Below are positions 32,298 to 57,174 of a stretch of DNA of 64,000 bases, in pieces. Position numbers and translations under genes: made by a program. Source of the DNA: an uncultured Pseudomonadota bacterium. GTDB taxonomy: Bacteria > Pseudomonadota > Alphaproteobacteria > Rs-D84. The stretch is taken from the NCBI GenBank assembly GCA_902762295.1, contig CACWNX010000001.1, positions 596,094 through 660,093 on the forward strand, given 5' to 3'. The notes under the pieces were generated by a model. That model did no database searches, was not told where the DNA came from, and saw only the letters and a program-made list of their open reading frames with translations. Each line of letters opens with the position of its first letter. Position 1 is the first letter of the stretch.

Positions 32298-32684
32298 TTA
32301 ATTTTTATTCCACAGCCAGCAATTTGCATCCGTATGTGTTGCGCCGTCCGGCCATCCGGCACAGTACATTTTTGCCTGGGTAACAGCCGCAATTGCACCC
32401 GCCGTAGGAATTACATTATCATAATAGCCAGGGTCATTATAAATATCCATATCTAGTGTATCCGAATCACCTATACTCATCTTTCCAACAATACCATCGG
32501 TGGTTGTGTTGGTTAACACAGATTGAATTTCACAATTAGGGTTGTATGCTTCAATTTTATTTTGTTTTTGTTCTAGTGCATTATCAACATATGATTTAGA
32601 TGTCACGATGTTTTCACCGGTTGCAAATGATGATGATGTTATTGCGGCAAAAATGCCCGCAAATATTAGCGATTTGTTTGTCAT
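32298..32684 (-). CDS. secreted protein, family member A (conserved ATGENxVTSKSYVD N-module and CAGWPDG...THTDANCWLW C-module)
   Basis: Signal peptide, then ATGENIVTSKSYVDNA; C-terminal Cys...Cys loop. Paralog of 56248-57174. Confidence 0.6.
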   Translation of the reverse strand: MTNKSLIFAGIFAAITSSSFATGENIVTSKSYVDNALEQKQNKIEAYNPNCEIQSVLTNTTTDGIVGKMSIGDSDTLDMDIYNDPGYYDNVIPTAGAIAAVTQAKMYCAGWPDGATHTDANCWLWNKN

Positions 32685-33071
32685 TTTCCTCTCTTTTATT
32701 TTTTTGTAAAGACTAAAAATTCCTCAGTCCTATTGTCACATAAAAGGTACCTTTTTTGTGTCAATTTTTTGGCGGATTTCCGGGCGTTTCAAAATTTACT
32801 GTCAAATTTAGTTTGTAAAAACCCCAGTGTTTCTGGGCGGTTCGGTGCCAAATTTTGATTTTTAAAAACTATTTTTCCCGGTTTTCTGCACACTTCCCCG
32901 ATTCGTTCCCACCACCGAAGTGCGGTGTTTGTTCTTGGACGGTGTAATAAAGAGATCCCGGTATGCGCCGGGATGACGATTTATTCCGCCGGGATGACGG
33001 TTCGCATTATAAATATGAAATAACAAAAATGATTTCTGAAATAAAAAATCGCCCTACTGGGCGACTTTTTA

Positions 33072-33278
33072 CTAGAATCCGAAAACCATTCTTTGTTTTG
33101 ATTGACGTTTCTTTTCGTTGCGAACGGCTTCTTCTTTTAAACGTTTGCGTTTTGTTGTTGGTTTTTCATAACGCTGGCGTTCTTTCATTTCGCGGTATAA
33201 ACCCTCTTTCTGGGATTTGCGTTTTGCGACACGTAATGCCTGTTCAACATTATTATCACGAACCAGAACTTTTACCAT
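33072..33278 (-). CDS. rpsU: 30S ribosomal protein S21
   Basis: [21 protein letters not shown]...: S21 signature. GGGGG SD before ATG 33278. Hairpin terminator at 33046-33070. Confidence 0.9.
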
Positions 33279-33323
33279 AAAGTATTCACCCCCTTTTGGC
33301 GTCAATTTATTTTTGAGAACTTG

Positions 33324-33400
33324 TGGTGGAGCTGATGGGACTCAAACCCACGACCTCCTGAATGCAAATCAGGCGCTCTAATCAACTGAGCTACAACCCC
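33324..33400 (-). tRNA. tRNA-Ala (anticodon TGC)
   Basis: Acceptor with G3:U70, anticodon loop TTTGCAT, T-loop TTTGAGT, encoded CCA. Confidence 0.9.
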
Positions 33401-33499
33401 AGAACTCTGTGACGCGTATTTTATGTGGTTTTTACGCAAAAGTCAACAAAAAAATATTTACTTTACACGCAACCGAACAATTCCTATAATTGGGGCATT

Positions 33500-35296
33500 A
33501 TGATGAAAATAATACATAAAATAAAAAATTTCTTTCGCGGCGATGCATCAAACGCACGCATTAAATGGTCACTGTATGGTCGCATATGGCGTGAAATCGG
33601 TCGTCCCCAATGGAAGTGGTTGGCACTTGGGATTATTGCAACAATCGGTGCCGCCGGTGCCGAAGGGTATTCAATCACACTGGTACAGCGTGTTGTTGAT
33701 AATGCATTCATAGATAAGAATATGCAGTCAACATATATTGTTGGGTTGCTGATTATCATGGCGTTCGGGGCCAAAGGCGCATTTAACTATGCGCGGTCGT
33801 TACTTATGGCTAAGGGCGGTTTGGCGGCCAGTGCATCATTGCAAAAACGCATATATTCGCATATGGTGCATATGGGAATTGCGGGATTCTATGGCGATGG
33901 TGTTGGAAAGCATTTGAATTATTTCTATGTTCAATCGGGCGCGGTGTTGCGTTTAGTAACGGAAAACATTTTATCACTGGTGCAACAGTTGGCAACACTG
34001 GTTATCACATTAACCCTGATGATATACTATGCACCCCAGGTATGCGCGATTCTGATTTTCTTGGTGCCGGCGATAATTGTGCCGTTGCTGATAATTATGC
34101 GTCGCCGGCGCAAACTGTCACGGCAATCATTTGGTATTGCAAACACTGTGTCCCAGCATTTAAACCAAACACTGCGCGGAATCAAAACCATTCAGGCATT
34201 TGCAAACGAAGATGTCGAAACACGCAAGTTCGCCGATGTTTTGCATCAATCTATGATAAATTCGTATAAGACGACCCAGGCCGCCGCGATTCAATCACCG
34301 TTATTGGAACTGATGATTTCAATCGGACTGTGTTTCGCATTGATTTTAGGTGGACATTTTATTGTGAATGGCGCGATTACAACCGGTGATTTTACGGCAT
34401 TCTTGCTGGCACTGATTGCGGCGTACAAACCGGCCAAGGCGATTACCGGAACCGGGGATACGGTTCAACATGGCTTACTGGCGGCAGAGGTTTTGTTTGA
34501 TTTCTTGGACACCAAACCAACAATTCGCAACAAACGCGATGCCAAGGATTTACGCGCCGTCCAACCATCGGTTGAATTCAAAAATGTTGATTTTTCATAT
34601 ATTGACGGTGAACAAGTTCTGCACGATATAAACCTGCATGTTGCCCCGGGTCAGGTTTGCGCCCTGGTCGGTCCCAGTGGTGGTGGCAAGACAACAATGT
34701 TTAACCTGATTGAACGTTTCTATGAACCAAATAATGGTTTTGTTGCGATAAACGGTACAAATATTCAGAAATATACTCTGGATTCGTTGCGTCGCAATAT
34801 TGCCGAAGTTTCCCAGGATGTATTTTTATTCAACGATACGATAGAGGCGAATATTAAATACGGTGCGCCACATGCATCGCATGACGAAGTTGTCGCGGCG
34901 GCACGCGCGGCGAATGCCGATGAATTTATTTGCGCATTGCCACATGGCTATGATTCCTGTGTCGGTGAAGGTGGTGCGTTATTGTCAGGTGGCCAGAAAC
35001 AGCGCATCGCGATTGCACGTGCAATATTGAAAAATGCACCGATATTGTTGCTGGACGAGGCGACATCCGCATTAGATACCGAGAGTGAGAAACTGATTCA
35101 ATCGGCATTAAAAGATTTGATGCAGGGACGCACGACATTTGTAATTGCGCATCGGTTGTCTACAATTCTGGATGCTGATATCATCTGTGTTATCAAGAAC
35201 GGTCACATTGTTGAACAGGGAACCGATGCTGAATTGGTCGCGATGGACGGCGAATACAAAAAACTGCGCGACATTCAATTCAAGAGCAAAAAATAG
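33500..35296 (+). CDS. ABC exporter, fused TMD-NBD (MsbA/lipid A exporter-like)
   Basis: Six-helix TMD followed by an NBD with Walker A GPSGGGKTT, signature LSGGQKQR, Walker B ILLLDEAT. Start at the MMKII ATG (33500) rather than the GTG at 33425. Confidence 0.85.
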   Translation: MMKIIHKIKNFFRGDASNARIKWSLYGRIWREIGRPQWKWLALGIIATIGAAGAEGYSITLVQRVVDNAFIDKNMQSTYIVGLLIIMAFGAKGAFNYARSLLMAKGGLAASASLQKRIYSHMVHMGIAGFYGDGVGKHLNYFYVQSGAVLRLVTENILSLVQQLATLVITLTLMIYYAPQVCAILIFLVPAIIVPLLIIMRRRRKLSRQSFGIANTVSQHLNQTLRGIKTIQAFANEDVETRKFADVLHQSMINSYKTTQAAAIQSPLLELMISIGLCFALILGGHFIVNGAITTGDFTAFLLALIAAYKPAKAITGTGDTVQHGLLAAEVLFDFLDTKPTIRNKRDAKDLRAVQPSVEFKNVDFSYIDGEQVLHDINLHVAPGQVCALVGPSGGGKTTMFNLIERFYEPNNGFVAINGTNIQKYTLDSLRRNIAEVSQDVFLFNDTIEANIKYGAPHASHDEVVAAARAANADEFICALPHGYDSCVGEGGALLSGGQKQRIAIARAILKNAPILLLDEATSALDTESEKLIQSALKDLMQGRTTFVIAHRLSTILDADIICVIKNGHIVEQGTDAELVAMDGEYKKLRDIQFKSKK

Positions 35297-35397
35297 CAAT
35301 CTTAAATTAAAAATGCTGTTTTTGTGATTTTTGCTTGATTTTTTATAAAACTGTGTCATAATTTGCCCCGAACTGCTGGAAAAAGACAGAAAGTTCT

Positions 35398-35473
35398 GGG
35401 GCTATAGCTCAGTTGGTAGAGCAAATGACTTTTAATCATTGGGTCCAGGGTTCGAGTCCCTGTGGCCCCACCA
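35398..35473 (+). tRNA. tRNA-Lys (anticodon TTT)
   Basis: Acceptor GGGGCTA/TGGCCCC, anticodon loop CTTTTAA, T-loop TTCGAGT, encoded CCA. Confidence 0.9.
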
Positions 35474-35676
35474 AAAATCAAAACCGACCTTGTGTCGGTT
35501 TTTGTTTTTTGATTGGGAAAACAAGACGAGAACCCGTGGGTTCGACACGATAGTTGGTGAAAACAAGCCTTGGCGCAGTTTGAACCTTACGAGTGGAAGG
35601 GTCCCAACACGCAGTGTTGGGATGTGCAATCCCTGTGGCCCCACCAAAAATCAAAACCGACCTTGTGTCGGTTTTT
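35458..35676. repeat. direct repeat (46 bp, copies at 35458-35503 and 35631-35676) bracketing a ~125-bp insert downstream of tRNA-Lys
   Basis: ccctgtggccccaccaaaaatcaaaaccgaccttgtgtcggttttt twice: the tRNA 3' terminus plus its terminator hairpin. The second copy is preceded by gggtcc, which matches the tRNA variable loop. Confidence 0.85.
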
Positions 35677-36385
35677 ATTTTTTATTTTCGTTTTTTATCG
35701 GTGGTGGCGCAACCTGGGTCAACATCTGGTCAAAATTCTTAGAAATTTCGGCGGTTGAATCCAGCCAATCGGTTATTTCGTCTATAATATTTCGTATATG
35801 GCGCGCAATTACGCGCCGACCACCCCCAAGGTGATGCGTGCCAACCAGTCGCGACATATCACGTGTTAGTTCCGTCATTATGCGCATTTGTTCCGGCGAA
35901 AAAACATTTTCCTTTGCGTACCCCAGAATAAGATTTTCCAGTTCTTCGTAATATTGGTGCAGTAAATTCATATTGTCCATTCGCAACGACAATTCGCGTG
36001 CAATGTGCGCCTCGGAAAGGGCGCGCATAGAATTTACAGCACCGCGTGTCAGCCGCCCACGCATCTTTATCATCTTGCGCAGAATAATCAGCGTATGCAA
36101 CATAATCGTATTGATTTTATCGGTCATGCCATTAATCAGGGTTTCTTGCAATCGTCGCGACACCCGGTTTGTCGTGTAATCGTAAAGCAAAAACACCAGC
36201 GGTATCGCCAACAATGATGCGGAAATATTGCTAATCAAACCTTCAACTGCCGGGTCCCGGACATTGTCCAATGATACCGAAAACAGAACAATTCCGCCGG
36301 CGATGGATATTGCATACGGCAAAGTTTTCAGCAAAAAATTACGAATTTTGTTTCTCATGGCATAAATTTTGCCAAAAATACCCAC
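35675..36385 (-). CDS. hypothetical membrane-anchored protein (236 aa)
   Basis: Two N-terminal TM helices, then a soluble helical region. No motif recognised. Confidence 0.45.
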   Translation of the reverse strand: MGIFGKIYAMRNKIRNFLLKTLPYAISIAGGIVLFSVSLDNVRDPAVEGLISNISASLLAIPLVFLLYDYTTNRVSRRLQETLINGMTDKINTIMLHTLIILRKMIKMRGRLTRGAVNSMRALSEAHIARELSLRMDNMNLLHQYYEELENLILGYAKENVFSPEQMRIMTELTRDMSRLVGTHHLGGGRRVIARHIRNIIDEITDWLDSTAEISKNFDQMLTQVAPPPIKNENKK

Positions 36386-36485
36386 ACCCCGCTATAAGAT
36401 AAAATCCCCGAACGCGCTTGAATTTCCCCGCATTTTGTACTATAATTATGGGTGTGTGGTGACATCAAACCAAAGGGGTCAGACA

Positions 36486-38999
36486 ATGACAATGAGTATG
36501 AAAAAATTTCTTGAAACATATTTTAAACTTGTTCGCTTGAAAGAAATGCGGTCTGATGATATCGAACGCTGGGTTCAATTTGAATCTTTGGTAAAAAAAG
36601 CCGACCTTACAAAAAACATGGCCGATTGGGTCAAGTTGTTAGAAAAGGATCCAATAACTGGTAATATTACCATAGACCCCGCGGATGGTTTCTATAAATT
36701 GATAAATTTAGACCCGAATGAATTAAGTGATAATGACTGGAAAGAATTATTTCTTAACACACAAAATGCTATGTCGGGACTGGTTGCACGACGCAAATCT
36801 TATGCAAACTTAGGTGAAGATGATATAGTAAATTTTATAGATGATAACAAAGACCGTTTTGAAAAAGCATGGGGCGACACAAAAGAGGCAACGCCAGAAA
36901 CAGAAGCGGCCATTGATTATTTAGTCAATAAACTAGATGATTTATTGAAAAAAAATCCTGATTTGTTTAGACAGCTTGGTTTATCCTATGTTAATATACA
37001 TGAACTAAAAGCTAAAGTTGCGCGTAAAGATTATAATAAAGCAGAATTTCAGAAAGAGATACGTGATATTGCGCAAAAATATACAGAATTTGTTTATGAT
37101 GATAGTAAAAAAATTGCCGGTATCGATAAAGACGCTGAAAATCTGGCTGATGAGTTTCGTGCCAATAATGTTGGATTTATCAGTAATGATTATGCCGGTT
37201 GGATTACCCCAGAGGTTGATGCTGCTAAATTGGCAGATTTTAAACTGCATTACCCAGATTTTATGCAAACATTGTATAAGAATCAAAAGGTTCTTGATGC
37301 GTTTAAACAGCACGAAGGCCAAAACAATCAGATATCTGCTGCTATTGCCGTTGCCAAAGAAAAAGTTGATTATGCAAATCCAGAATCAAAAGATTATGTC
37401 CAGCCAAAGCGTTCGGACGAACTTACGTTATTTCAACAAGTAAAGAAATACGTTGGTGATACATATGAAAATTTATTTGAAAAATATACAAAGTTACGTG
37501 GAGATAGAATATACCTTAATCCGGCAACAAAAGATGTTTGTAAAGCCATAGATAAAGCAGGCATAAAACCAACAGATGGATTAGGAAAAATTGTTGAAAC
37601 CGCATCAAACATAAAAGCAAATTTAAAAGGCAAACATAATGCCAGCGCTGCGTTTGAATGGTTAGAATCAACACTTAACGATTTTAAAAATGATTTAAAT
37701 ATGGCAAAATCTTTTGCAGGCGCTTTAAAGAACGGACGTCAAATGAAAAATTTGATCGCGGAACTTATTATGAAAGCCGCCAAGGATGCGCAAGATCCAA
37801 AAAACGGGAAAACAAAAGAAGATGTTATAAAAAATGTCAAAATTGCTATGGAGGTTTTATCCATCATTAAATATGCCAACACAACAAGCAAAATTATGGG
37901 TGCAATTAAAGACGACAAAGAATTATTCAACTTTATGTCAAACAAGGACTTGTCGTGGAATAAAAATGCGGGCGTACAGTTCGTAACAAGCGCGCTAGAT
38001 AAAAGTGTCCGTGCCGCTTTCATTGGTATTGGTTATGGTGCAACTTTACTAACAAATACTATCAGAAAATCTGGAAGTAAATTTAATCAGAAATTCAAAA
38101 ACAAAGGCATGAAAAATTCTTACAAGACATGGAACACAAAAAACACCGCATACAAAGGTGAGCTTAATACGCGAGTGGCTGCAGATGCCGCCGGCACTTC
38201 GGCGGATGCGATGAATCGCGATGCAAATGTTATGAGAAAAGGCGCTGCTTTGGTTGGGTTGGGTGTTGCCGGTGGTGGCGCGGCGGATGTTGAATTAAAA
38301 CAAAAAGAGTTAGATACTACGGGGCGTCAAGATGAATTAAAGGCTCAGTATGCACTTGAACCATATGAACAATTATTACAACAATTACAACAAGTCCTTG
38401 ATATCAAGAAAAAATTAGAACCGATTGAGGCACAAGAAGCCGCCCTGCGAGCGGCTGTAATGGCAGCAGGACCAGATAAAGACGTAAAAGTTGCAGAATT
38501 AACAGCATTGTTAAATTCAAAAAAAAGTCTTGTGGAACAATTGGAAAATTTCAGGGATGTTATTGATTTAGGAATTGTTGGTCTTGGCGTCGTAGATATT
38601 GATGCAGTTACTGTTGCTGATATTGAAGCAATAATGGATCATATTCAGAATGTTGATCCCGGTTATCAGAATGCTGTGTTAGATTATGAATTAATCAGTC
38701 AAGAAAACGCAGAAAAGCAACAACATATAAATGATTTTCGCAAAGCGACAGAAGAAATAAAAAATTCACAAGCAAGTATGGATCGTCGTGCAAAAGAATT
38801 AGCAGATTGGGATAAAAAACACATTGATGTATACAATGAATTAATGGCGTATTGGGATTTCTTGGAAACTGGGCGCGATTCTCATACAGGAAAGTTATAT
38901 AGCTGGCGTCCGGGTAATGCCGAAAACAAACAAAAACCTATGCGTGCCGATGCATTAGCTAAGTTTGCTGCATTCCGCAGTGGATACCATGCGGCGTAA
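36486..38999 (+). CDS. large hypothetical protein (~838 aa) with extensive coiled-coil/Lys-rich regions and a Gly/Ala-rich hydrophobic segment
   Basis: AAAGGGG SD before ATG 36486 (MTMSMKKFLE...). Heptad-rich segments (ELKAQYALEPYEQLLQQLQQVLDIKKKLEPIEAQEAALRAAV). GAALVGLGVAGGGAA segment. No enzymatic motif. Confidence 0.6.
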   Translation: MTMSMKKFLETYFKLVRLKEMRSDDIERWVQFESLVKKADLTKNMADWVKLLEKDPITGNITIDPADGFYKLINLDPNELSDNDWKELFLNTQNAMSGLVARRKSYANLGEDDIVNFIDDNKDRFEKAWGDTKEATPETEAAIDYLVNKLDDLLKKNPDLFRQLGLSYVNIHELKAKVARKDYNKAEFQKEIRDIAQKYTEFVYDDSKKIAGIDKDAENLADEFRANNVGFISNDYAGWITPEVDAAKLADFKLHYPDFMQTLYKNQKVLDAFKQHEGQNNQISAAIAVAKEKVDYANPESKDYVQPKRSDELTLFQQVKKYVGDTYENLFEKYTKLRGDRIYLNPATKDVCKAIDKAGIKPTDGLGKIVETASNIKANLKGKHNASAAFEWLESTLNDFKNDLNMAKSFAGALKNGRQMKNLIAELIMKAAKDAQDPKNGKTKEDVIKNVKIAMEVLSIIKYANTTSKIMGAIKDDKELFNFMSNKDLSWNKNAGVQFVTSALDKSVRAAFIGIGYGATLLTNTIRKSGSKFNQKFKNKGMKNSYKTWNTKNTAYKGELNTRVAADAAGTSADAMNRDANVMRKGAALVGLGVAGGGAADVELKQKELDTTGRQDELKAQYALEPYEQLLQQLQQVLDIKKKLEPIEAQEAALRAAVMAAGPDKDVKVAELTALLNSKKSLVEQLENFRDVIDLGIVGLGVVDIDAVTVADIEAIMDHIQNVDPGYQNAVLDYELISQENAEKQQHINDFRKATEEIKNSQASMDRRAKELADWDKKHIDVYNELMAYWDFLETGRDSHTGKLYSWRPGNAENKQKPMRADALAKFAAFRSGYHAA

Positions 39000-39002
39000 A
39001 CA

Positions 39003-39030
39003 TTTCCCCACAGCATGTGGGGATTTTTGT
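39003..39030 (+). terminator. intrinsic terminator
   Basis: ttccccacagcatgtggggattttt: hairpin plus T-run. Confidence 0.6.
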
Positions 39031-39099
39031 TGAAATCGCGCAGACTGGGTGCTAAGATTCCCGCGTGATAATCATTTAATTCAACCAAAAGGAAATAAT

Positions 39100-40341: not shown

Positions 40342-40434
40342 CACGATGTTTTCCGTTACCAATTGCTTGTGGCAACGGAAAACTTGCATTTTTATTCTGT
40401 GGGTGGTATTCTTGAACACCGTAAGAAGGTTTTC

Positions 40435-43473: not shown

Positions 43474-43505
43474 ATCAAAAAATCCCCATTGTTGGGGATC
43501 TTTTA

Positions 43506-48089: not shown

Positions 48090-48099
48090 AAAACGCGGG

Positions 48100-48489: not shown

Positions 48490-48500
48490 GTTTTTATCCT

Positions 48501-49428: not shown

Positions 49429-49437
49429 AATAGTCCC

Positions 49438-51234
49438 CTAAATACCAACCCCGAATCCAATGCGTTTGGAAAAACCGGCAGACTGTTGCAATGATAACAA
49501 ATCATCTATCTTTTGAATTGTGAATTCGGTTGGCGTATCGTTGCCATCGTTTTCCAATAATTGCCGTCGCAGAATTGCCGCAATTTCGCGTTGCAGTTGG
49601 CGAACCCCCGATTCCGCAGTATATTTTTGAATTATATGCCGAATTGCATCGTCAGAAATGGTTATGTTGTCTGGATTCCAACCTGTATCCGCCGCCGCAC
49701 GCGCAATCAAATGTTCGCGTGCAATTTGAACCTTATCATCTTCGCTGTAGCCGGGAATTTCAATAATTTCCATTCTATCCTTTAATGCGCCCGACATATT
49801 CAAACTGTTTGCGGTTGCGATGAACAATACATTTGATAAATCAAAGTCAACCTCAAGATAATGGTCACGAAACGCACGATTTTGTTCGGGGTCTAATACT
49901 TCTAGCAATGCCGATTCTGGGTCGCCACGCCAATCGCGTCCCATTTTATCTATTTCGTCCAACACGATAACTGGATTGTTTGATTTTGCGCGTTTTAACG
50001 CATCCATAATGCGTCCAGGTTGCGAACCAATATAGGTTTTACGATGCCCACGAAAGTGCGCCTCGTCCGAAACCCCGCCAAGTGATATACGATGATATTT
50101 TCGTCCCAATGCCGCGGCGATAGATTTACACAGTGATGTTTTTCCGACACCCGGTGCCCCAACAAAGCATAAAATGCTGCCTTTATTTGAACCGGTCTTT
50201 TTCATAACCGCAATGTGTTCTAAAATGCGTTCTTTGACGGCGCGCATGCCGGAATGTTCGCTGTCCAGTATTTTGCGTGCAACATTTAAATCAATTTCCG
50301 ATTTATCGGACTTTCCCCACGGCATCGCCAACAATTCATCAAGATATGTTTTAATAAGTCCACCTTCGTTTGACATTGGCGACATATTGCGCATGCGTTT
50401 CCATTCAGATACCGCCTTGTCCTTGACATCCGATGGCATTGCGGATTTTTCAATTTTCTTGCGCATATTTACTGTATCAGATTCTTCGTCATCTTCGCCC
50501 ATTTCTTTTTGAATTGCGCGCATTTTTTCTTGCAATATGGCATCACGACGACCTTGCTCCATCTGCATGCTGATACGGCGATTTATGCTGTCTTCTACCT
50601 TAGATGTTTCATATATTACACGAATTTTTTCAAACAGCATAACCATTTTATCATACCACGACGGGGTAATCAGAATCTGGATTGCGACATCTGTATCAAT
50701 CTCGGCGGTTTGCAACATAGAATCGATGAATGCCGGCATCGGATAGTTTTGAATCACACTGCGCAATTTATCCATTTTTAACTTTCGGAACAGTGACATT
50801 GCCTGGACCATTTCAAAAATTTTATCACGCATTAAAATTGTGCGTTCATCGGCAATATCATCACCCATTGGAACGATATCAACATCAGATGTGAAAATGC
50901 CATTATCAACCGAGATATTTTTCATTCGGACAACCATTGTTGTGCGAATCACCGTATGCAATGAACCATCTGGCATGCGCAGAACTTGGGCAATTTCGCC
51001 AATTGTACCGTATTCATACAAATCGCCCGGTGCAGACGGATATGCCGTTCCATGTTGCGGCGCCAATATAACATTCTGATGCGCGGCAACCGCCGATTCA
51101 ATACAGGCAATTGAAACCAGGTTATCAATATAGATTGGCACCGTCATTCCGGGATGCACAACCAAATCACGACAAGGTAAAATGAATTCTTTCATAGCAA
51201 TACTAAATATAGACACAATTTTATCGTTTTTCAA
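49438..51234 (-). CDS. Lon-like ATPase: Lon N-terminal (LON/PUA) plus AAA+ module, without an S16 peptidase domain
   Basis: N-domain, then Walker A GAPGVGKTS, Walker B VIVLDEIDKM, sensor and helical subdomain (VRQLQREIAAILRRQL). The ORF stops about 15 aa past the point where Lon's protease domain normally begins. Confidence 0.8.
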   Translation of the reverse strand: MKNDKIVSIFSIAMKEFILPCRDLVVHPGMTVPIYIDNLVSIACIESAVAAHQNVILAPQHGTAYPSAPGDLYEYGTIGEIAQVLRMPDGSLHTVIRTTMVVRMKNISVDNGIFTSDVDIVPMGDDIADERTILMRDKIFEMVQAMSLFRKLKMDKLRSVIQNYPMPAFIDSMLQTAEIDTDVAIQILITPSWYDKMVMLFEKIRVIYETSKVEDSINRRISMQMEQGRRDAILQEKMRAIQKEMGEDDEESDTVNMRKKIEKSAMPSDVKDKAVSEWKRMRNMSPMSNEGGLIKTYLDELLAMPWGKSDKSEIDLNVARKILDSEHSGMRAVKERILEHIAVMKKTGSNKGSILCFVGAPGVGKTSLCKSIAAALGRKYHRISLGGVSDEAHFRGHRKTYIGSQPGRIMDALKRAKSNNPVIVLDEIDKMGRDWRGDPESALLEVLDPEQNRAFRDHYLEVDFDLSNVLFIATANSLNMSGALKDRMEIIEIPGYSEDDKVQIAREHLIARAAADTGWNPDNITISDDAIRHIIQKYTAESGVRQLQREIAAILRRQLLENDGNDTPTEFTIQKIDDLLSLQQSAGFSKRIGFGVGI

Positions 51235-51242
51235 GGGTAATA

Positions 51243-51270
51243 AAAAATCCCCAGAATTTGGGGATTTTTA
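51243..51270. terminator. bidirectional intrinsic terminator
   Basis: aaaaaatccccagaatttggggattttt. Confidence 0.6.
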
Positions 51271-51288
51271 ATGTCTGGGTCAATGTTT

Positions 51289-51513
51289 TTAACGACGGCG
51301 ACCGTTAAAACCATGCTGTTGGCTGCTGCCTGAACGTTTTGACAGATAACGTGCGGCGATAATCACCAACCATTCCAGTGCCAATGCACCCATTGCAACC
51401 ATTTTCTGTTCTAATTCTAACCAACCAATAACATAAACCAACTGGGCAATGAAAGATATATACAAAATTCCAAAAACACCACTAAAAAACACTTTTTTTA
51501 TTTTTCCTAACAT
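51289..51513 (-). CDS. small hydrophobic protein (74 aa, two predicted TM helices)
   Basis: ORF with an AAAGG SD-like sequence upstream. Hydrophobic throughout. Low certainty that it is expressed. Confidence 0.35.
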   Translation of the reverse strand: MLGKIKKVFFSGVFGILYISFIAQLVYVIGWLELEQKMVAMGALALEWLVIIAARYLSKRSGSSQQHGFNGRRR

Positions 51514-51640
51514 TTTATTACCTTTTTGTTCCTGTTATGTTTCATATATTATATTCCGGGTTTCTGGTGCCAGGCACCCGGCGGCCCCGCAAAAAAGCTG
51601 AACAGATATAATCAACAATCGCCAATTATATCAAACCTAA

Positions 51641-53669
<2,029 letters not shown>

Positions 53670-53741
53670 TCTTTTTGATTTTTTCACAAAATTTTGCTAG
53701 ACTGCATGCGTTAACAATTCATAACCAAGGGAGAAAAGTTT

Positions 53742-54365
53742 ATGACATCATTAAAGGGCACACAAACCGAAAAAAATTTGTTAATCGCATTTGCCGGCGA
53801 ATCCCAGGCACGCAATCGTTATTCTTTCTTTGCATCACGCGCCAAGGATGAAGGATACCAGGCGATTGGAAAAATATTTCTTGAAACCGCAGAACAGGAA
53901 CGCGAACACGCATCGCGACTTTTTAAATTTCTAGAAGGTGGTGCCATTGAAATAACTGCGGCATTTCCGGCGGGAAAAATTGGTACAACATTGGAAAACT
54001 TGCAGGCGGCGGCATACGGCGAACACGAAGAAAATACCGAAATGTATCCACACTTTGCACAAATTGCCGCCCAGGAAGGTTTTGATTCTATTGCATCGGT
54101 GTTAAAGAATATTGGACTTGCCGAACGTTATCATGAATCGCGTTTCCGTGCCTTGATAGATGCGATTGAAAACGGTACATTGTTCAAGCAAGATAAAATT
54201 GTTATGTGGCGTTGCACGAATTGCGGAATGTGGCATATTGGAACCGAGGCACCATCGGTTTGTCCGGCATGCCTGCACCCCCAGGGGTATTTTATCAGCG
54301 AAGGTACAATTTCCCGTTGTGACACGAACGAAGGTTTCTGTGAATATGCAAAAATAGATGACTAG
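53742..54365 (+). CDS. rubrerythrin (ferritin-like diiron domain plus C-terminal rubredoxin-like CxxC...CxxC)
   Basis: ExxH diiron ligands (EQEREHASR, GEHEENTEMY). C-terminal WRCTNCGMW...CPAC. Confidence 0.85.
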   Translation: MTSLKGTQTEKNLLIAFAGESQARNRYSFFASRAKDEGYQAIGKIFLETAEQEREHASRLFKFLEGGAIEITAAFPAGKIGTTLENLQAAAYGEHEENTEMYPHFAQIAAQEGFDSIASVLKNIGLAERYHESRFRALIDAIENGTLFKQDKIVMWRCTNCGMWHIGTEAPSVCPACLHPQGYFISEGTISRCDTNEGFCEYAKIDD

Positions 54366-54387
54366 TGTTCAATTATGTATAAACAAA

Positions 54388-54414
54388 AACGGTGCGCATC
54401 GCACCGTTTTTTAT
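54388..54414. terminator. bidirectional intrinsic terminator
   Basis: aaaaacggtgcgcatcgcaccgtttttt. Confidence 0.65.
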
Positions 54415-54995
54415 CGTGATTTTATCCGATTTGCATAAATTGTTGCACGTCGCCGCAGTTTATTTGGCATAGTTTCAATATTAAAAACATCTAAAATTTT
54501 TTGTGCATCCACCGGATGCGATTTCAGATGTCCAAACAAAATATTTTCTGCAATTTTTTTATCTGTAATTGAATTTGGATTTTGCATGAATTTATCAAAG
54601 ATGCCCGGATTGTGTTTTGCGATATTTTGCAGCACCAGTAAGTTAAATTTATCATCACTGTTAATTTTTAAGACACCATCTCGGATATAGATTTTAACAA
54701 TATCATTAATATTATTTGCGCGTTCTTTCATTTGGTCTTTTTTGTGTTCAACCGCATATTTACCCCAGCATGCACAGGTTGCGAACACAAGAATACTTGC
54801 AGAAAGCAGAAATTCCCCACATTTTCCCATTTTATAATTTTCGTTTGTTAACATCAGCCCCGTTAATCCTGCGCCAATAATTGCCGGTATTATCGGGCGC
54901 AACACGCCTGCGCGAATCATCAAGAATGGCGGTAATCTGTATTTGTTTGTTTCGGTATATCCTGGAAAAATTGCTTTTGATTTATTGCTTTGCAT
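54411..54995 (-). CDS. hypothetical membrane protein (194 aa)
   Basis: Two TM helices near the N-terminus, soluble C-terminal half. Forms an apparent two-gene unit with the lipoprotein at 54998-55465. Confidence 0.45.
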   Translation of the reverse strand: MQSNKSKAIFPGYTETNKYRLPPFLMIRAGVLRPIIPAIIGAGLTGLMLTNENYKMGKCGEFLLSASILVFATCACWGKYAVEHKKDQMKERANNINDIVKIYIRDGVLKINSDDKFNLLVLQNIAKHNPGIFDKFMQNPNSITDKKIAENILFGHLKSHPVDAQKILDVFNIETMPNKLRRRATIYANRIKSR

Positions 54996-54997
54996 TG

Positions 54998-55465
54998 TTA
55001 ATCCTTTTTTTCTAATTCATCCAGGATTTCATTTAATTTTCTGATAGAACTGTTCTGGCAACCGCGCCCGCGCCAAGACAGGATTTCTTTGCCGGTTTTT
55101 TGGTCTGCAACCGATACATTAAATCGCCACCACCACAGCCCATTGAATATGCACCATGGCATAAACAGTTCGCGACTTTCAGCAACTTTTACAACATATT
55201 CTGCCTTGATATACTTTTCTGATTTTGAATCGTCATAGAAAGTATCAACATCAACAACATCGGTCATTTTATTTGCACGTCCGACAATAACATTATAACC
55301 GCGTTTGTCCATGGTTTCTTTGATACTGCGCTTCATTGTAAATCCGCCCCGGTCGGCATATATTGTTTTTGTTGTGTCCAGTGTTCCCGGTTTCATATAA
55401 ACACTGTTGCATGCGGTCAAAGATAAAACAGCAACAAGAATCAGGATTTTTTTCATAAATACCAC
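54998..55465 (-). CDS. hypothetical lipoprotein (155 aa)
   Basis: MKKILILVAVLSLTACNSV: signal peptide plus lipobox. Confidence 0.5.
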   Translation of the reverse strand: MVFMKKILILVAVLSLTACNSVYMKPGTLDTTKTIYADRGGFTMKRSIKETMDKRGYNVIVGRANKMTDVVDVDTFYDDSKSEKYIKAEYVVKVAESRELFMPWCIFNGLWWWRFNVSVADQKTGKEILSWRGRGCQNSSIRKLNEILDELEKKD

Positions 55466-55474
55466 CTATAAAAA

Positions 55475-55663
55475 TGGCGCACCCGGCGCGATTCCCTCGG
55501 GCAAATGTCCTGCGGGGCATTCGTTAGCGCTTGAACTTCGTTTTACTCGTTCTCGCTTACTCATTGTCGAACGCGACGCGTTCAAATCGCGGGGCGCACA
55601 GCAATAAATTCAAATCATCATTGCGGGATAATTTAAATTTATTGGCGCACCCGGCGCGATTCG
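55475..55663. repeat. 20-bp duplication of the tRNA-Arg(CCG) 3' terminus (55475-55494 and 55644-55663) bracketing a ~149-bp insert
   Basis: tggcgcacccggcgcgattc occurs twice. The insert contains a T-arm-like gcgttcaaatcgcggggcgca and a tcgttctcg...gtcgaac segment resembling the Arg(ACG) and Lys inserts. Confidence 0.8.
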
Positions 55664-55719
55664 AACGCGCAATCCCCGCCTTCGGAGGGCGGTGCTCTAT
55701 CCAGTTAAGCCACGGGTGC
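55644..55719 (-). tRNA. tRNA-Arg (anticodon CCG)
   Basis: Acceptor GCACCCG/CGGGTGC, anticodon loop CTCCGAA, T-loop TTCGAAT, encoded CCA. Confidence 0.9.
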
Positions 55720-55960
55720 GTGACCGCATAAATTATATTCGTTCACCGTTAAAAATCAAGCATAAAAGCATCGGTAAATCGGCATCGTTTTGTATCGGCA
55801 TACCGGCGAAAATTTGTATGTGCGAACAACTGAACACGCAGTTCAAGCAACTACAAATTTACACGCAGGGCTTTGCCCTAGTGAAACCCGGTATAGTGTC
55901 ACTCTTGGCGGGCGCAAGCGCGCGCGCTTTACAATGTTTTGTTGTGTATGAAATTTTTGC

Positions 55961-55995
55961 TTGTACATAAATTGCATTTCTGATAAAATACAGGT
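55961..55995 (+). promoter_or_regulatory. σ70-like promoter (TTGTAC-17-TAAAAT) upstream of a ~220-nt leader
   Basis: ttgtacataaattgcatttctgataaaat: -35 and -10 hexamers with 17-bp spacing, read by eye. Confidence 0.4.
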
Positions 55996-56185
55996 GAACT
56001 GGGTGGGAACCTGGTTCGGGGCAGTAGCATGCCTTCTCAGAATCGGTGCAATGCATCGTAATCCGTTGTGATTTCCATGTTTTTGCACCGTATTTAGAAT
56101 CCCCGTATGTCGGGGTGCCTGTGGTTATATAATAGGCTTGTCCGAAAACTACAGGGTCATGATTCTGAGTGATATGCTAACGCCC

Positions 56186-56217
56186 CGACCGTCTTGGATT
56201 CCCATGACGGTTTTTTT
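56186..56217 (+). terminator. intrinsic-terminator-like hairpin plus T7 run, 30 nt before the start codon of family member B (possible attenuator or 3' end of an sRNA)
   Basis: gaccgtcttggattcccatgacggttttttt: 6-bp stem ACCGTC/GACGGT, 12-nt loop, seven T. Confidence 0.4.
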
Positions 56218-56247
56218 ACAACAAACAAAAAACAATGGGGGGAATCC

Positions 56248-57174
56248 ATGAAATCAAACCCAACATTTATCTTTGCCGGAATAATGTCGGCAATAGTCGG
56301 CAATGCGTACGCAACCGGCGAAAACACTGTGACAAGTAAAAGTTACGTTGATGCCCAAGATGCATTGAAACAGAATTTAATTCCGGCGAAAAGCACCGCA
56401 ACTTCATATTCCAATGCGAGCCTTGTAGAAGCGAGCGGGACACCCGGTATGATAGGTGAACGTAAAATTTTCGATCACATGGTGGATTTGGATACGGAAA
56501 CACTTGGGCAGACATCAGATTTTTACACAGGTGCGGGTTGGGACGACGATGCTGATTGGACAGAGTTACAATCATATATTCCAACCACTGGCGCGGTTGT
56601 TGATGCAATTGATGGTGCCATATATAGTTTGCAAAACAAAATTGCCAAATCTGGATACGGAGTGATGGGTGGTTTTAACAGGTATACAGAACAGGACCCT
56701 TCTAACACCAGTCTAAGTTGGTTAAGTTCGGGTGTCAAAGGAACAGGTTTGGTTACCAAAACAAATGAAGATGGTCGTGTTGGTGAACGTAAGATATTTG
56801 AAGAAACCGATGTTTCGGGCTATCACGCGGACGGATTGACCCAAAATCAAAAAGATATTCAAGATATTTCTATTCCGACCGTTGGGGCGATGATGACGGC
56901 GATTTCAAATGGTGTTAATGCCGCGACACCAACCGGAACACCAAACACAATTGCAAACTATGGTGCCAATGGCGAACTGGATTCTGGTATTGCAACATAT
57001 ACCGGTGCGGCGGCATACAATGCAACAAATGATTCAGCAAAGATTCCAACTATGGCGGGTGTCACAACTTATGCCCAGGCGAAAAAGACCTGTGCCGGGT
57101 GGCCTGATGGCACAACAACATACGATGCCACACATACCGATGCGAATTGTTGGCTGTGGACTTTCCCAGACTAA
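56248..57174 (+). CDS. secreted protein, family member B (same N- and C-terminal modules as 32298-32684; middle region with IPTxGA repeats)
   Basis: GGGGGGAA SD before ATG 56248. Signal peptide; ATGENTVTSKSYVDAQ. Three IPT(T/V/M)GA-type repeats. C-terminal CAGWPDGTTTYDATHTDANCWLW. Confidence 0.65.
   Translation: MKSNPTFIFAGIMSAIVGNAYATGENTVTSKSYVDAQDALKQNLIPAKSTATSYSNASLVEASGTPGMIGERKIFDHMVDLDTETLGQTSDFYTGAGWDDDADWTELQSYIPTTGAVVDAIDGAIYSLQNKIAKSGYGVMGGFNRYTEQDPSNTSLSWLSSGVKGTGLVTKTNEDGRVGERKIFEETDVSGYHADGLTQNQKDIQDISIPTVGAMMTAISNGVNAATPTGTPNTIANYGANGELDSGIATYTGAAAYNATNDSAKIPTMAGVTTYAQAKKTCAGWPDGTTTYDATHTDANCWLWTFPD

What the first reader, a model, noticed from the sequence alone, without database searches (positions are those of the whole stretch)
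32298..57174. Two-member family of secreted proteins with conserved N-terminal ATGENxVTSKSYVD and C-terminal CAGWPDG...THTDANCWLW disulfide-loop modules and a variable repeat-bearing middle
Proteins at 32298-32684 (128 aa, minus strand) and 56248-57174 (309 aa) share a signal peptide, a nearly identical 14-residue block right after the cleavage site, and a nearly identical C-terminal about 25 residues with two Cys flanking a W-rich loop. The long member has three IPT(T/V/M)GA(V/M) repeats in the expanded middle. The bipartite conservation with a hypervariable, repeat-expandable centre resembles pilin/adhesin or phage tail-fibre tip logic (conserved anchor plus variable receptor-binding part). 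I do not recognise the family.
Basis: seen in the sequence. Interest (0 to 1): 0.6.

Follow-up and report, generated by a model that had tools for sequence, protein, structure and literature searches.

The report
Mosaic secreted repeat-protein family, gut Alphaproteobacteria
The two genes are real members of a large, undescribed family of exported, modular proteins, probably surface fibres, found only in tiny-genome gut Alphaproteobacteria (Candidatus Enterousia, order Rs-D84); the family swaps its middle parts between copies and strains and carries its own upstream control elements.

Summary
Gene A (32298-32684, minus strand, 128 aa) and gene B (56248-57174, 308 aa) share a Sec-type signal peptide, a 13/14-identical block after the predicted cleavage site, and a two-cysteine C-terminal cap.

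They are not a two-member family. A profile search finds 564 cluster representatives (86-2302 aa). All named or located members come from Candidatus Enterousia / Rs-D84 gut and rumen genome bins of about 0.75-1 Mb, with up to 14 copies per bin.

No Pfam, NCBIfam, PHROG, PDB or phage match exists.

The N-terminal block is the start of a repeat unit (helix, beta segment, loop, IPTxGA). A has one unit plus the cap; B has three.

Members are mosaics. A second strain (flanks 98-99% identical) carries a 156-aa allele at the B locus, with B-type ends, an A-type N block and an unrelated middle.

About 40% of family genes, including B, follow a 130-nt structured leader ending in a terminator hairpin; it has no Rfam match. 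A follows a family-specific palindrome instead.

The best reading is Sec-exported, disulfide-capped fibre-like surface adhesins diversified by cassette exchange. Function, oligomeric state and surface location are inferred, not shown.

The parts
32298..32684 (-). Gene A, 128 aa: signal peptide + one repeat unit + C-terminal cap (the minimal family member)
   Evidence: ORF list. Family HMM E 2e-40 with an N and a C segment. Residues 21-103 align to at least 5 internal repeats of the 1004-aa member P0121.
32622..32684 (-). A signal peptide, residues 1-21 (MTNKSLIFAGIFAAITSSSFA, then TGEN)
   Evidence: Read from the sequence: basic n-region, hydrophobic core, small-x-small (SFA) before the conserved block. 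It has no lipobox cysteine. Position conserved in the family. No signal-peptide predictor was available.
32553..32621 (-). A N block, residues 22-44 (TGENIVTSKSYVDNALEQKQNKI), the start of the repeat unit
   Evidence: About 91% identical in DNA to the N block of the 156-aa allele found at the B locus of another strain.
32391..32411 (-). A IPTAGAI motif, the end of the repeat unit
32310..32375 (-). A C-terminal cap, residues 104-125 (AKMYCAGWPDGATHTDANCWLW), with two invariant Cys
   Evidence: It is the only confidently modelled part of A, a beta-hairpin with pLDDT about 85.
32266..32291 (-). Intrinsic-terminator-like hairpin plus T run straight after A's stop codon
   Evidence: Sequence CCGCCCGTTCGGGCGGTTTTGATTTT. 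It suggests A is transcribed separately from the lysozyme-like gene downstream.
32733..32764 (-). 32-bp near-perfect inverted repeat with core palindrome AAAGGTACCTTT (32743-32754), 59-70 nt upstream of A's ATG: a family-specific, operator-like element
   Evidence: It is the only occurrence in the 64-kb window. In 732 kb of related loci, 22 of 23 occurrences lie within 200 nt upstream of a family gene, often as two copies 86 nt apart. There are none in 62 kb of control loci.
56095..56230 (+). Structured leader of about 130 nt directly 5' of B: -10-like box, three-way junction (P1 GUCGGGGUG/CGCCCCGAC, P2, P3), then a terminator-like hairpin plus U run (56189-56217)
   Evidence: Covariance model R1 scores 98 bits, E 4e-21 here. 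All 34 hits at E<=1e-3 in 730 kb precede a family gene on the same strand. In the alignments, 89-90% of cells are paired against 34-55% for slid controls, and helix P2 has changes on both sides at 5 of 5 pairs. The minimum-free-energy fold recovers all helices, z = -2.65. No Rfam match.
56248..57174 (+). Gene B, 308 aa: signal peptide + three repeat units + C-terminal cap
   Evidence: ORF list. Family HMM E 2e-139. RBS GGGGGG 7 nt before the ATG.
56248..56313 (+). B signal peptide, residues 1-22 (MKSNPTFIFAGIMSAIVGNAYA, then TGEN)
   Evidence: Read from the sequence. Conserved in the family.
56314..56385 (+). B N block, residues 23-46 (TGENTVTSKSYVDAQDALKQNLIP)
   Evidence: (Y33, D35 and Q42 invariant)
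56455..56472 (+). GERKIF motif of unit 1 (beta segment)
   Evidence: It is repeated at 56782-56799.
56578..56598 (+). IPTTGAV, the end of unit 1
   Evidence: Modelled as strand plus helix.
56719..56913 (+). Conserved core, residues 158-222 (WL..VKGTGLVTKT..DG.VGERKIFE..DVSGYHA..LTQ..KDIQDISIPTVGAMM), including the second GERKIF (56782-56799) and IPTVGAM (56872-56892)
   Evidence: Nearly invariant columns G165 to I219 in the 80-sequence alignment.
57043..57063 (+). IPTMAGV, the end of unit 3
57079..57159 (+). B C-terminal cap, residues 278-304 (AKKTCAGWPDGTTTYDATHTDANCWLW)
   Evidence: C282, C301, L303 and W304 are invariant. pLDDT about 87.
57213..57232 (+). Intrinsic-terminator-like hairpin plus T run after B
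   Evidence: Sequence CGGGGCATTTGCCCCGTTTT

Best explanation
A and B belong to a lineage-restricted multigene family of Sec-exported, acidic, Thr/Gly/Ala/Asn/Asp-rich modular proteins.

Each protein has three parts: a signal peptide, then n tandem repeat units, then a small C-terminal cap closed by a disulfide (C-x12-18-C-x-L-W). Each unit has four elements: a short helix (..YVD..AL..KQxKI), a beta segment (SVLTxTTxDGxVG(K/ER)KIF), a variable loop or inserted module, and an IPTxGA(V/M) strand. A has one unit, B has three, and the largest members reach 2302 aa.

I propose that they assemble into thin fibre-like surface appendages, probably oligomeric, on a partner-dependent, reduced-genome gut alphaproteobacterium, where they mediate attachment to other cells or surfaces.

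Under this reading the invariant first unit-start and the C cap are the assembly parts: export or anchoring at one end, and a folding or registration nucleus at the other. The middle modules are the exposed, specificity-bearing part.

The same conserved end blocks serve as homology arms. Middle cassettes are exchanged between paralogues and between strains, which gives mosaic genes and unrelated alleles at one locus.

Each gene is its own transcription unit. About 40% of them, including B, sit behind a family-specific structured leader that ends in an intrinsic terminator, so the gene needs read-through. Others, including A, sit behind a family-specific palindromic operator-like site. This implies dedicated, conditional control of the repertoire.

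Shown here: the family and its restriction to one lineage, the unit and cap architecture, the lack of any known homologue, mosaicism, the allele replacement with a chimeric N block, and the specificity and structural conservation of the upstream elements.

Inferred: export through Sec, the disulfide, fibre or oligomer formation, surface location, the adhesin role, and how the leader works.
For: Family and lineage:
- 172 hits in the indexed search.
- 564 cluster representatives at E<=1e-3 and 153 at E<=1e-30, 86-2302 aa long.
- 58 genomic loci, all in Candidatus Enterousia or uncultured alphaproteobacterial rumen and gut genome bins.
- Up to 14 copies per bin. These genomes are 0.75-1.0 Mb, lack respiration, and are interpreted as obligate symbionts or parasites (PMC12306168).

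Architecture:
- Invariant residues are Y33, D35, Q42, I183, C282, C301, L303 and W304.
- 227 of 245 members carry the N motif, mostly at residues 23-30. 232 of 245 carry the C motif, with a 3-4 residue tail in 191.
- A aligns to at least 5 internal repeats of P0121.
- 162 of 245 members have exactly two Cys. Others add Cys-rich C-terminal extensions, which fits an extracytoplasmic location.
- Mature pI is 4.2-4.3.

Fibre-like behaviour:
- Monomer AlphaFold models are poor, with pLDDT 65.5 for B and 51.3 for A. Only the cap hairpin and the strand-helix at each IPT motif are confident.
- No globular fold match was found.

Mosaicism:
- Identity per 30-aa window between members includes 57, 90, 97, 73, 43, 57, 57, 93, 53 for one pair and 97, 40, 27, 17, 17, 47, 90 for another.
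- The middle cassette of the 156-aa allele recurs at 50-65% identity inside giant members.

Allele swap:
- L062 is 98-99% identical to the window in the flanks, but carries a 156-aa gene at the B locus.
- That gene has a B-type 5' end and cap (92% and 96%), an N block about 91% identical to paralogue A, and a 243-nt middle with no match in the window.

Independent units:
- Each gene has its own RBS and terminator.
- No neighbour is conserved across the 58 loci.
- The closest homologues of B lie at different loci.

Control elements.

Closest functional analogue: the Bdellovibrio MAT fibres (PMC10769870).
Against: - No experiment or transcript data support any step of the functional reading.
- No route across the outer membrane was identified. 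The organism appears to have two membranes: msbA and mlaE lie in the window or its flanks, and fabZ and lpxD-like genes lie in L073. A Sec signal alone would leave the proteins in the periplasm.
- Oligomerisation could not be tested, because no multimer prediction was available.
- Poor monomer models are equally expected for intrinsic disorder or shallow alignments.
- A conserved C terminus is unusual for receptor-binding fibres, whose tips normally vary.
- The organism is an anaerobe without a respiratory chain, so the source of disulfide oxidation is unclear.
- I found no antiterminator structure in the leader. It could instead be a separate small RNA.
Confidence: 0.5

Rival explanations
1. 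Variable surface coat for evasion rather than adhesion. The proteins are the same exported modular proteins, but their main role is to vary the exposed surface, escaping phages, predators or host IgA. Only some of the repertoire is expressed at a time, under control of the leader and operator elements.
For: Many paralogues sit in a genome under 1 Mb. Cassette exchange and unrelated alleles occur at one locus within a species. The family has dedicated upstream control elements of two types within one genome.
Against: No switching mechanism is visible: no invertible promoter, long simple repeats, silent cassettes or reverse transcriptase next to the genes. Every copy seen has its own start, RBS and terminator. 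The conserved core of B suggests a fixed function.
Confidence: 0.15
2. Periplasmic or envelope proteins, or soluble secreted factors, that are not surface fibres. The repeat units could act as envelope spacers or scaffolds, or as soluble binding proteins, and the Cys-rich extensions as knottin-like effector domains.
For: Only a Sec signal is evident. No secretion or assembly genes are linked. Some members end in Cys-rich knot-like extensions.
Against: Extreme length variation (86-2302 aa), mosaicism and allele replacement are typical of exposed proteins under diversifying pressure, not of envelope housekeeping proteins.
Confidence: 0.15
3. Subunits of a polymeric filament (pilus-like). The conserved N-terminal strand of one subunit docks into the conserved C-terminal cap of the next, as in donor-strand or head-to-tail assembly, and the variable middles decorate the filament.
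For: Conservation is concentrated at the two ends, as in flagellin and pilins. N-block subtype correlates with cap subtype: TSK with CAGW..CWLW in 153 of 190 members, and TQ/SQ with C(T/V)R(W/Y)..CLLW in 67 of 69.
Against: Signal-peptide columns correlate equally with the cap subtype, so the correlation reflects subfamily descent, not contact. The N block also recurs internally many times in long members. No usher, chaperone, sortase or prepilin-peptidase-type signal was found. Subunits of 86 to 2302 aa are implausible for one polymer.
Confidence: 0.08
4. Domesticated or prophage-borne phage tail-fibre genes.
For: The proteins are fibre-like, repetitive and mosaic. Motifs such as xSKxYVD, IPTxGAV and GKVLVVxxxG recall, from my memory only, tail-fibre sequences. 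A weak lysozyme-like gene lies next to A.
Against: No PHROG or Pfam tail-fibre hit was found for 80 members or for the giants. tblastn found nothing in 50,697 phage records. No locus was found in IMG/VR. The proteins have Sec signal peptides. The genes stand alone among housekeeping genes with no phage neighbours. A terminator separates A from the lysozyme-like gene.
Confidence: 0.03

Closest known systems
Bdellovibrio bacteriovorus MAT (mosaic adhesive trimer) fibres (Caulton et al. 2024, PMC10769870)
   Same: Both are multigene families (21 in Bdellovibrio; up to 14 or more per genome bin here) of signal-peptide-bearing, phage-fibre-like mosaic proteins. Both occur in a bacterium that depends on other cells. 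In both, a conserved module follows the signal peptide directly, other parts are swappable, and the outer-membrane route and anchor are unknown.
   Different: MAT proteins have a conserved beta-rich N domain of about 130 aa and variable C-terminal tips, and 13 of the 21 end in an S74 chaperone-protease. Here the conserved N element is about 25 aa and is the start of a repeat unit. The C terminus is the most conserved part, a 25-30 aa disulfide cap. No S74 domain was found. No sequence link to the solved MAT fragments was found in the PDB.
Phage tail fibres and receptor-binding proteins
   Same: Both have a modular, repetitive, mosaic architecture with recombination at conserved junctions, and large length variation.
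   Different: No sequence or fold match was found. The family has Sec signal peptides, a chromosomal housekeeping context, a conserved rather than variable distal end, and no chaperone gene.
Flagellin, and type IV pilins with the C-terminal disulfide-bonded D-region
   Same: All have conserved termini with a variable, exchangeable middle. The family, like pilins, has a C-terminal loop closed by two Cys.
   Different: No Flagellin_N/C or pilin domains were detected. The family has a classical Sec signal instead of none (flagellin) or a prepilin leader with G/FTLIE (pilins). It has tandem internal repeat units. The lineage has no flagellar machinery.
Foldon of phage T4 fibritin (27-residue C-terminal beta-hairpin trimerisation nucleus); comparison from my own knowledge, by analogy only
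   Same: Both are very small conserved C-terminal beta-hairpin modules at the end of a repetitive protein.
   Different: There is no sequence similarity. The cap is locked by a Cys pair. Trimerisation was not tested.
Terminator-containing 5' leaders (riboswitches and attenuators) upstream of surface-structure genes
   Same: The conserved multi-helix RNA is followed by an intrinsic terminator only 25-40 nt before the RBS, so the gene can be expressed only by read-through.
   Different: It matches none of the 4227 Rfam families. No ligand, antiterminator or trans factor was identified. It is restricted to this gene family.

Membership tests
Bdellovibrio MAT fibre family | [quoted passage not shown] | tested here: not met
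   The conserved element after the signal peptide is about 25 aa and recurs internally as the start of the repeat unit.
Bdellovibrio MAT fibre family | Variable C-terminal tip domains; S74 chaperone-protease in a subset | tested here: not met
   The C terminus is the most conserved part. No Peptidase_S74 or other Pfam hit was found in 80 members or 6 giants.
Bdellovibrio MAT fibre family | Trimeric fibre | not testable with these tools
   Only monomer AlphaFold2 was available. The models are poor.
Phage tail fibre / receptor-binding protein families | Sequence or fold match to known tail-fibre families; location in a phage or prophage | tested here: not met
   No hit in PHROGs or Pfam, tblastn against phages, IMG/VR or Foldseek BFVD and PDB. 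Neighbours are housekeeping genes.
Flagellin | Flagellin_N and Flagellin_C domains; no signal peptide; flagellar genes present | tested here: not met
   No such Pfam hits, apart from one member with a sub-threshold FliC_D2 hit at E 0.004. The proteins have signal peptides. The lineage lacks flagellar machinery (PMC12306168).
Type IV pilins | Prepilin leader ending in Gly, followed by a hydrophobic N-methylated helix (FTLIE) | tested here: not met
   The N terminus is a classical signal peptide of 21-22 aa with an A-x-A-like site, followed by the polar sequence TGENxVTSK.
Type IV pilins | C-terminal disulfide-bonded loop | tested here: inconclusive
   Two invariant Cys are spaced 12-18 residues apart near the C terminus. 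This is a superficial resemblance only, and the disulfide itself is not shown.
Chaperone-usher or other pilus subunits | Fimbrial domain; linked chaperone and usher genes | tested here: not met
   No Pfam hit. No neighbour family is conserved across the 58 loci.
Trimeric autotransporter adhesins | C-terminal YadA-type beta-barrel anchor; head, neck and stalk motifs | tested here: not met
   No Pfam hit. The proteins end 3-4 residues after the cap. The best Foldseek hit, to an Hsf domain, is not significant at E 3.6.
Any Rfam RNA family (for the leader at 56095-56230) | Score at or above a family's gathering threshold | tested here: not met
   Only tRNAs and tmRNA pass in the window. In the permissive scan the best hit has E 0.82, at 17 bits against a gathering score of 90.
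Candidate new leader RNA motif (model R1) | Conserved secondary structure with covariation; consistent genomic context | tested here: met
   89-90% of cells are paired against 34-55% in slid controls. Helix P2 has both-side changes at 5 of 5 pairs, while P1 is almost invariant and so uninformative. All 34 hits lie 5' of family genes on the same strand. Caveat: the sequences are related, and the alignment A8 was fitted to the model.

The most novel reading that the evidence does not exclude
The unit as a whole is a previously undescribed system for generating a surface repertoire in an uncultured, partner-dependent gut bacterium. It consists of a control element, signal peptide, unit-start block, exchangeable cassettes, disulfide cap and terminator. 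The conserved coding ends have two roles: they are assembly modules and they are recombination anchors that let cassettes move between paralogues and strains. A new class of structured leader RNA, riboswitch- or attenuator-like and carrying a built-in terminator, decides which fibres are made. The fibres would determine which partner cells the bacterium can attach to, much as receptor-binding proteins set phage host range.
Probability: 0.25. Interest if true: 0.75.

Novelty: new variant of a known kind. Interest (0 to 1): 0.58.

Why it matters
Rs-D84 / Enterousia bacteria are widespread in ruminant, horse, chicken, wolf and human guts. Their genomes are under 1 Mb and lack respiration, the TCA cycle and standard transporters, and nobody knows how they obtain metabolites from a partner.

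A family that takes up to 14 or more of about 900 genes, is exported, and is reshuffled even within a species is a prime candidate for the interface with that partner. Its dedicated control elements point the same way.

The family gives concrete handles for three things:
- finding the partner, using the fibres as baits;
- typing strains, using allele repertoires;
- testing a new terminator-containing leader RNA.

It also adds an independent example, beside the Bdellovibrio MAT fibres, of a cell using a fibre-like mosaic repertoire. This example has a different layout, with both ends fixed and the middle swapped.

Tried and rejected
1. Known-family assignment. Pfam, NCBIfam and PHROGs were run on A and B. 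Pfam and PHROGs were also run on 80 members, the giants and the most canonical-looking members. The only result was one member with a weak hit to an unknown-function PHROG.
3. Phage origin. tblastn of B, of a 580-aa member and of a 2302-aa member against 50,697 phage records found no match. IMG/VR gave no locus.
4. Linked secretion or assembly genes. No neighbour cluster is shared by more than 6 of the 58 loci, and those are syntenic housekeeping genes.
5. Recent gene conversion between A and B in this genome. Rejected, because the conserved blocks differ at synonymous sites. Exchange between the two loci is nevertheless seen in another strain.
6. Direct contact between the N block and the cap, inferred from subtype co-variation. 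Rejected, because signal-peptide columns correlate just as strongly, so the pattern reflects subfamily descent.
7. A Cys2-His-Asp metal site in the cap. Rejected, because the His is not conserved (for example ADRTDANC and AEQTDENC).
8. An antiterminator in the leader. The 5' strand of P2 can pair with the 5' strand of the terminator, but this pairing does not co-vary, judged by inspection of the alignment. No mechanism is claimed.
9. More alleles at the two loci. Exact-protein look-ups of flanking genes returned only the same alleles.
10. Loci around an identical rpsU gene turned out to be diverged genomes without the family. They were used as negative controls.


Full report
**1. The observation**

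Both ORFs exist as described.
- A is 32298-32684 on the minus strand, 128 aa.
- B is 56248-57174 on the plus strand, 308 aa. A longer TTG start at 56194 is unlikely, because the ATG at 56248 follows a GGGGGG ribosome-binding site.

BLASTP of A against B returns two separate significant segments. The N-terminal one has E 1e-15. The C-terminal one is 62% identical over 39 aa, E 2e-14.

The block after the predicted cleavage site is 13/14 identical (ATGENIVTSKSYVD against ATGENTVTSKSYVD). The C-terminal CAGWPDG..ATHTDANCWLW differs only by a 5-residue insertion in B.

Within these blocks the two genes differ at many synonymous sites, including Ser TCT/TCA against AGT/AGT. The similarity is therefore maintained at the protein level and is not a recent duplication or conversion in this genome.

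A family HMM run on all six reading frames finds only these two members in the window.

**2. What organism and how big a family**

An indexed search with B returned 172 relatives. None has a Pfam domain, and all are unnamed or called hypothetical. The few named ones come from 'Alphaproteobacteria bacterium' genome bins.

An exhaustive profile search of 1.84 billion cluster representatives found 564 at E<=1e-3 and 153 at E<=1e-30. Their lengths run from 86 to 2302 aa.

A scan of one genome per species found 58 loci. All are in 'Candidatus Enterousia' or in uncultured alphaproteobacterial or proteobacterial bins from buffalo, goat and cattle rumen and other guts.

HMM searches of those loci give up to 14 copies per bin: 14, 10, 9, 8, 7 and so on. 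These are lower bounds, because the loci were fetched with only two peptide patterns.

Enterousia belongs to order Rs-D84. Its genomes are 0.75-1.0 Mb and lack the TCA cycle, respiration, flagella and standard transporters. They have been interpreted as obligate symbionts or parasites that may take metabolites from other cells (PMC12306168).

**3. Anatomy**

In an 80-sequence alignment the invariant residues are Y33, D35, Q42, I183, C282, C301, L303 and W304, in B numbering.

Of the 245 family proteins retrieved:
- 227 have the N motif ([..][ST][KQR]xY[VT]D), mostly starting at residues 23-30, directly after a signal peptide of 21-25 residues;
- 232 have the C motif C-x(n)-C-x-L-[WY];
- the loop between the two Cys is mainly 12-13, 16 or 18 residues;
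- 191 end 3-4 residues after the LW.

A minority (about 30-40 members) continue into Cys-rich knot-like extensions. Most members (162 of 245) have exactly two Cys.

Mature A and B are acidic (pI 4.2-4.3), rich in Thr, Gly, Ala, Asn and Asp, and poor in Arg.

The N-terminal block is not a unique module. Residues 21-103 of A align, at 30-44% identity, to at least five consecutive internal repeats of the 1004-aa member P0121.

The family is thus built from a tandem unit with four elements:
- a short helix, (Y/F)(V/A)D..AL..KQxKI;
- a beta segment, SVLTxTTxDGxVG(K/ER)KIF;
- a variable loop or inserted module;
- an IPTxGA(V/M) strand, followed by the next helix.

A is a signal peptide, one unit and the cap. 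B has three units and the cap, with GERKIF at residues 70 and 179 and IPT motifs at 111, 209 and 266. The giants have many units plus inserted repeated domains.

B's residues 158-222 form a core that is nearly invariant in the members of about 300 aa.

**4. No known relative**

Nothing meaningful came from any of these searches:
- Pfam, NCBIfam and PHROGs on A and B;
- Pfam and PHROGs on all 80 aligned members;
- Pfam and PHROGs on six giants;
- PHROGs on the members with the most fibre-like motifs;
- a profile search of PDB sequences;
- tblastn against 50,697 phage genomes;
- a scan of IMG/VR.

AlphaFold2 monomer models are weak. B has pLDDT 65.5 and pTM 0.40; A has pLDDT 51.3 and pTM 0.24. 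Only the cap (a beta-hairpin, pLDDT about 85-87) and a strand-helix element at each IPT motif are modelled with some confidence. Foldseek against the PDB and BFVD found nothing significant.

The motifs reminded me of tail-fibre sequences. That is memory, not evidence, and every test of it failed.

**5. Mosaic evolution and an allele swap within one species**

Pairs of members show block-wise identity. Examples, as percent identity per 30-aa window:
- P0007 against P0021: 57, 90, 97, 73, 43, 57, 57, 93, 53;
- P0021 against P0077: 97, 40, 27, 17, 17, 47, 90, 67, 40, 63;
- P0060 against P0071: above 83% for 240 residues, then 37, 33, 37.

The best relative of A outside this strain, P0237 (156 aa), does not lie at the A locus. 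It lies at the B locus of another strain, on a wolf-gut metagenome scaffold, between the same lipoprotein gene and the APH-like kinase and prfB genes.

The flanks of that scaffold are 98-99% identical to the window. At the gene itself:
- the upstream region and signal peptide match B (92%);
- the next 77 nt match the N block of paralogue A (91%, including A's Ser codons);
- 243 nt have no match anywhere in the window;
- the cap and terminator match B (96%).

The unmatched cassette recurs at 50-65% identity inside several giant members.

So one locus in one species carries a 308-aa or a 156-aa gene. The ends are kept, the middle is replaced, and one breakpoint lies in the conserved N block, with sequence imported from another paralogue. 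This is direct evidence that the conserved ends act as recombination anchors.

The closest sequence relatives of B (71% and 63% identity) lie at unrelated loci in other genomes, next to rpsP/dnaK and next to secE-nusG/RNase J. A copy with the same RBS and start lies next to fabZ-lpxD.

No neighbouring gene family is shared by more than 6 of the 58 loci. Each gene has its own RBS and an intrinsic-terminator-like hairpin. The one after A separates it from the lysozyme-like gene downstream.

**6. Family-specific upstream elements (found while checking promoters)**

(a) The leader upstream of B. B is preceded by a conserved element of about 130 nt at 56095-56230. It consists of:
- an AT-rich -10-like box;
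- a three-way junction, with P1 GUCGGGGUG/C(A/G)CCCCGAC, P2 with an AU-rich loop, and P3 GGAAUCA/UGAUU;
- a hairpin plus U run (56189-56217) that ends only about 25-40 nt before the RBS.

There is therefore no room for a separate promoter, and the gene must be reached by read-through.

A covariance model built from 23 copies (R1) finds 28 hits at E<=1e-8 and 34 at E<=1e-3 in 730 kb. All 34 lie on the strand of a family gene and immediately 5' of it, with a median gap of 15 nt. For three hits the gene has a longer N-terminal prefix.

On the seed alignment 88.9% of cells are paired, against 35-54% when partners are slid. P2 shows changes on both sides at 5 of 5 pairs. P1 is almost invariant and so uninformative. 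The terminator stem exists in two compensating versions, CCGUC/GACGG and ACGUC/GACGU.

The minimum-free-energy fold of the window copy recovers all helices, z = -2.65. Rfam has no match.

(b) The palindrome upstream of A. A is preceded instead by a 32-bp near-perfect inverted repeat at 32733-32764, with core AAAGGTACCTTT.
- The core occurs once in the window.
- In the related loci, 22 of 23 occurrences lie within 200 nt upstream of a family gene, often as two copies 86 nt apart within a conserved segment of about 150 nt.

Neither motif occurs in 62 kb of control loci that lack the family.

These elements are more conserved than the coding middles. I read them as dedicated control modules: a terminator-containing leader RNA and an operator-like site. 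How either works is unknown. I found no convincing antiterminator.

**7. Mechanism proposed, and its status**

Shown:
- an exported-type N terminus;
- the unit-plus-cap architecture;
- restriction to one lineage and expansion within it;
- mosaicism;
- allele replacement anchored in the conserved ends;
- dedicated cis elements.

Inferred:
- The proteins cross the inner membrane by Sec.
- The two invariant Cys close the cap by a disulfide. The Cys-rich extensions in some members also point to an extracytoplasmic location.
- The units form an extended, probably oligomeric fibre whose folding is nucleated by the cap. This is by analogy with C-terminal registration modules such as the T4 fibritin foldon, cited from my own knowledge.
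- The fibres sit on the cell surface and bind partner cells or particles.
- The middle modules carry the specificity.

The main gaps are these. No outer-membrane route was identified. Oligomeric state was not tested. The source of disulfide oxidation in an anaerobe without a respiratory chain is unclear. There are no expression data.

The rivals, in decreasing order of plausibility, are:
- an evasion coat rather than an adhesin;
- periplasmic or soluble proteins;
- polymerising pilus-like subunits;
- phage-derived fibres.

The N/C subtype correlation that might have supported the pilus-like rival is explained by subfamily descent.

**8. Comparison with what is known**

The closest analogue in logic is the Bdellovibrio MAT fibre family. 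It has a signal peptide, a conserved N domain of about 130 aa and variable tips. It has 21 paralogues, is phage-like, and its anchor is unknown (PMC10769870).

This family differs in four ways:
- both ends are fixed and the middle is swapped;
- the conserved N element is short and repeat-derived;
- a disulfide cap takes the place of a tip or S74 domain;
- there is no detectable sequence relationship.

It fails the defining features of flagellins, type IV pilins, chaperone-usher pilins, trimeric autotransporters and tail fibres (see the membership table).

**9. Verdict**

This is a real and undescribed protein family: a new variant of the known kind 'mosaic surface fibre or adhesin repertoire'. 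It comes with two previously undescribed family-specific upstream elements, one of which is a candidate new structured leader RNA.

Interest is moderate to fairly high. The family is probably the interface between an abundant but unstudied group of gut bacteria and whatever they depend on. It is also directly testable.

Noticed in passing
window 56095-56230 (+): Conserved structured leader of about 130 nt (three-way junction plus terminator hairpin) directly upstream of B. It occurs upstream of about 40% of family genes in related genomes, has no Rfam match, and is a candidate new cis-regulatory RNA.
   Followed up: yes
window 32733-32764 (core 32743-32754): 32-bp inverted repeat with core palindrome AAAGGTACCTTT upstream of A. 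In related loci 22 of 23 occurrences lie upstream of family genes, often as two copies 86 nt apart within a conserved segment of about 150 nt. It looks like an operator for an unknown regulator.
   Followed up: partly
window 56006-56094 (+): Just upstream of the B leader lies a segment (GGTTCGGGGCAGTAGCATGCC..GCATCGTAATCCGTTGTGATTTCCATG). It resembles the 5' half of the variant leader seen in locus L017. It may be a half-copy left by recombination. Model R1 does not score it as a second full copy.
   Followed up: no
window 55643-55719 (-) tRNA-Arg(ccg); 33324-33400 (-) tRNA-Ala(tgc); loci L004, L006, L007, L009, L026, L041, L047, L069: Family genes often lie 320-530 bp downstream of a divergently oriented tRNA gene. 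At least 8 loci show this, involving at least 5 different tRNAs (Trp, Val, Arg-acg, Arg-ccg, Leu-caa; in L047 the tRNA is co-oriented). My rough estimate of the chance expectation is about 1 locus. It may mark preferred insertion or recombination sites.
   Followed up: partly
window 30986-32233 (-): A 415-aa protein just downstream of A, separated from it by a terminator. It has an N-terminal hydrophobic segment and weak, sub-threshold similarity to phage lysozyme and endolysin (PF00959 E 0.0075; phrog_7 E 6.6e-5). It is conserved next to A in other samples of this strain.
   Followed up: no
window 1443-5717 (+), 36369-38999 (+), 27679-29067 (-), 59095-60384 (+): Four large ORFs (1424, 876, 462 and 429 aa) have no Pfam domain at all. 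The 1424-aa protein has a central cluster of hydrophobic segments and a Pro/Lys-rich stretch. The 876-aa protein is Lys/Asp/Glu-rich and lies in the lowest-GC part of the window, 37%. They may be lineage-specific envelope or effector proteins.
   Followed up: no
window 58979-58985 (-), junction of ORFs 57977-59002 and 58980-59336: The prfB gene (release factor 2) is split over two frames, with a CTTTGAC site at the junction. This fits the classical +1 programmed frameshift.
   Followed up: partly
window 51553-51895 (-): A permuted alphaproteobacterial tmRNA (RF01849, 170 bits), which fits the taxonomic assignment.
   Followed up: no
L062 8518-9611 against window about 59095-60384: In the wolf-gut strain, the 411-aa hypothetical gene downstream of prfB is called as two ORFs (279 and 87 aa). 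The DNA alignment breaks at window 59845-59999. This is an indel or frameshift difference between the strains.
   Followed up: no
family members P0149, P0240-P0245, P0071, P0113 (not in the window): A subset of members replaces the 3-4 residue tail after the cap with Cys-rich, knottin-like extensions holding 6-18 extra Cys. In many of these the cap loop is also shortened, to C..C-T-L-W.
   Followed up: no
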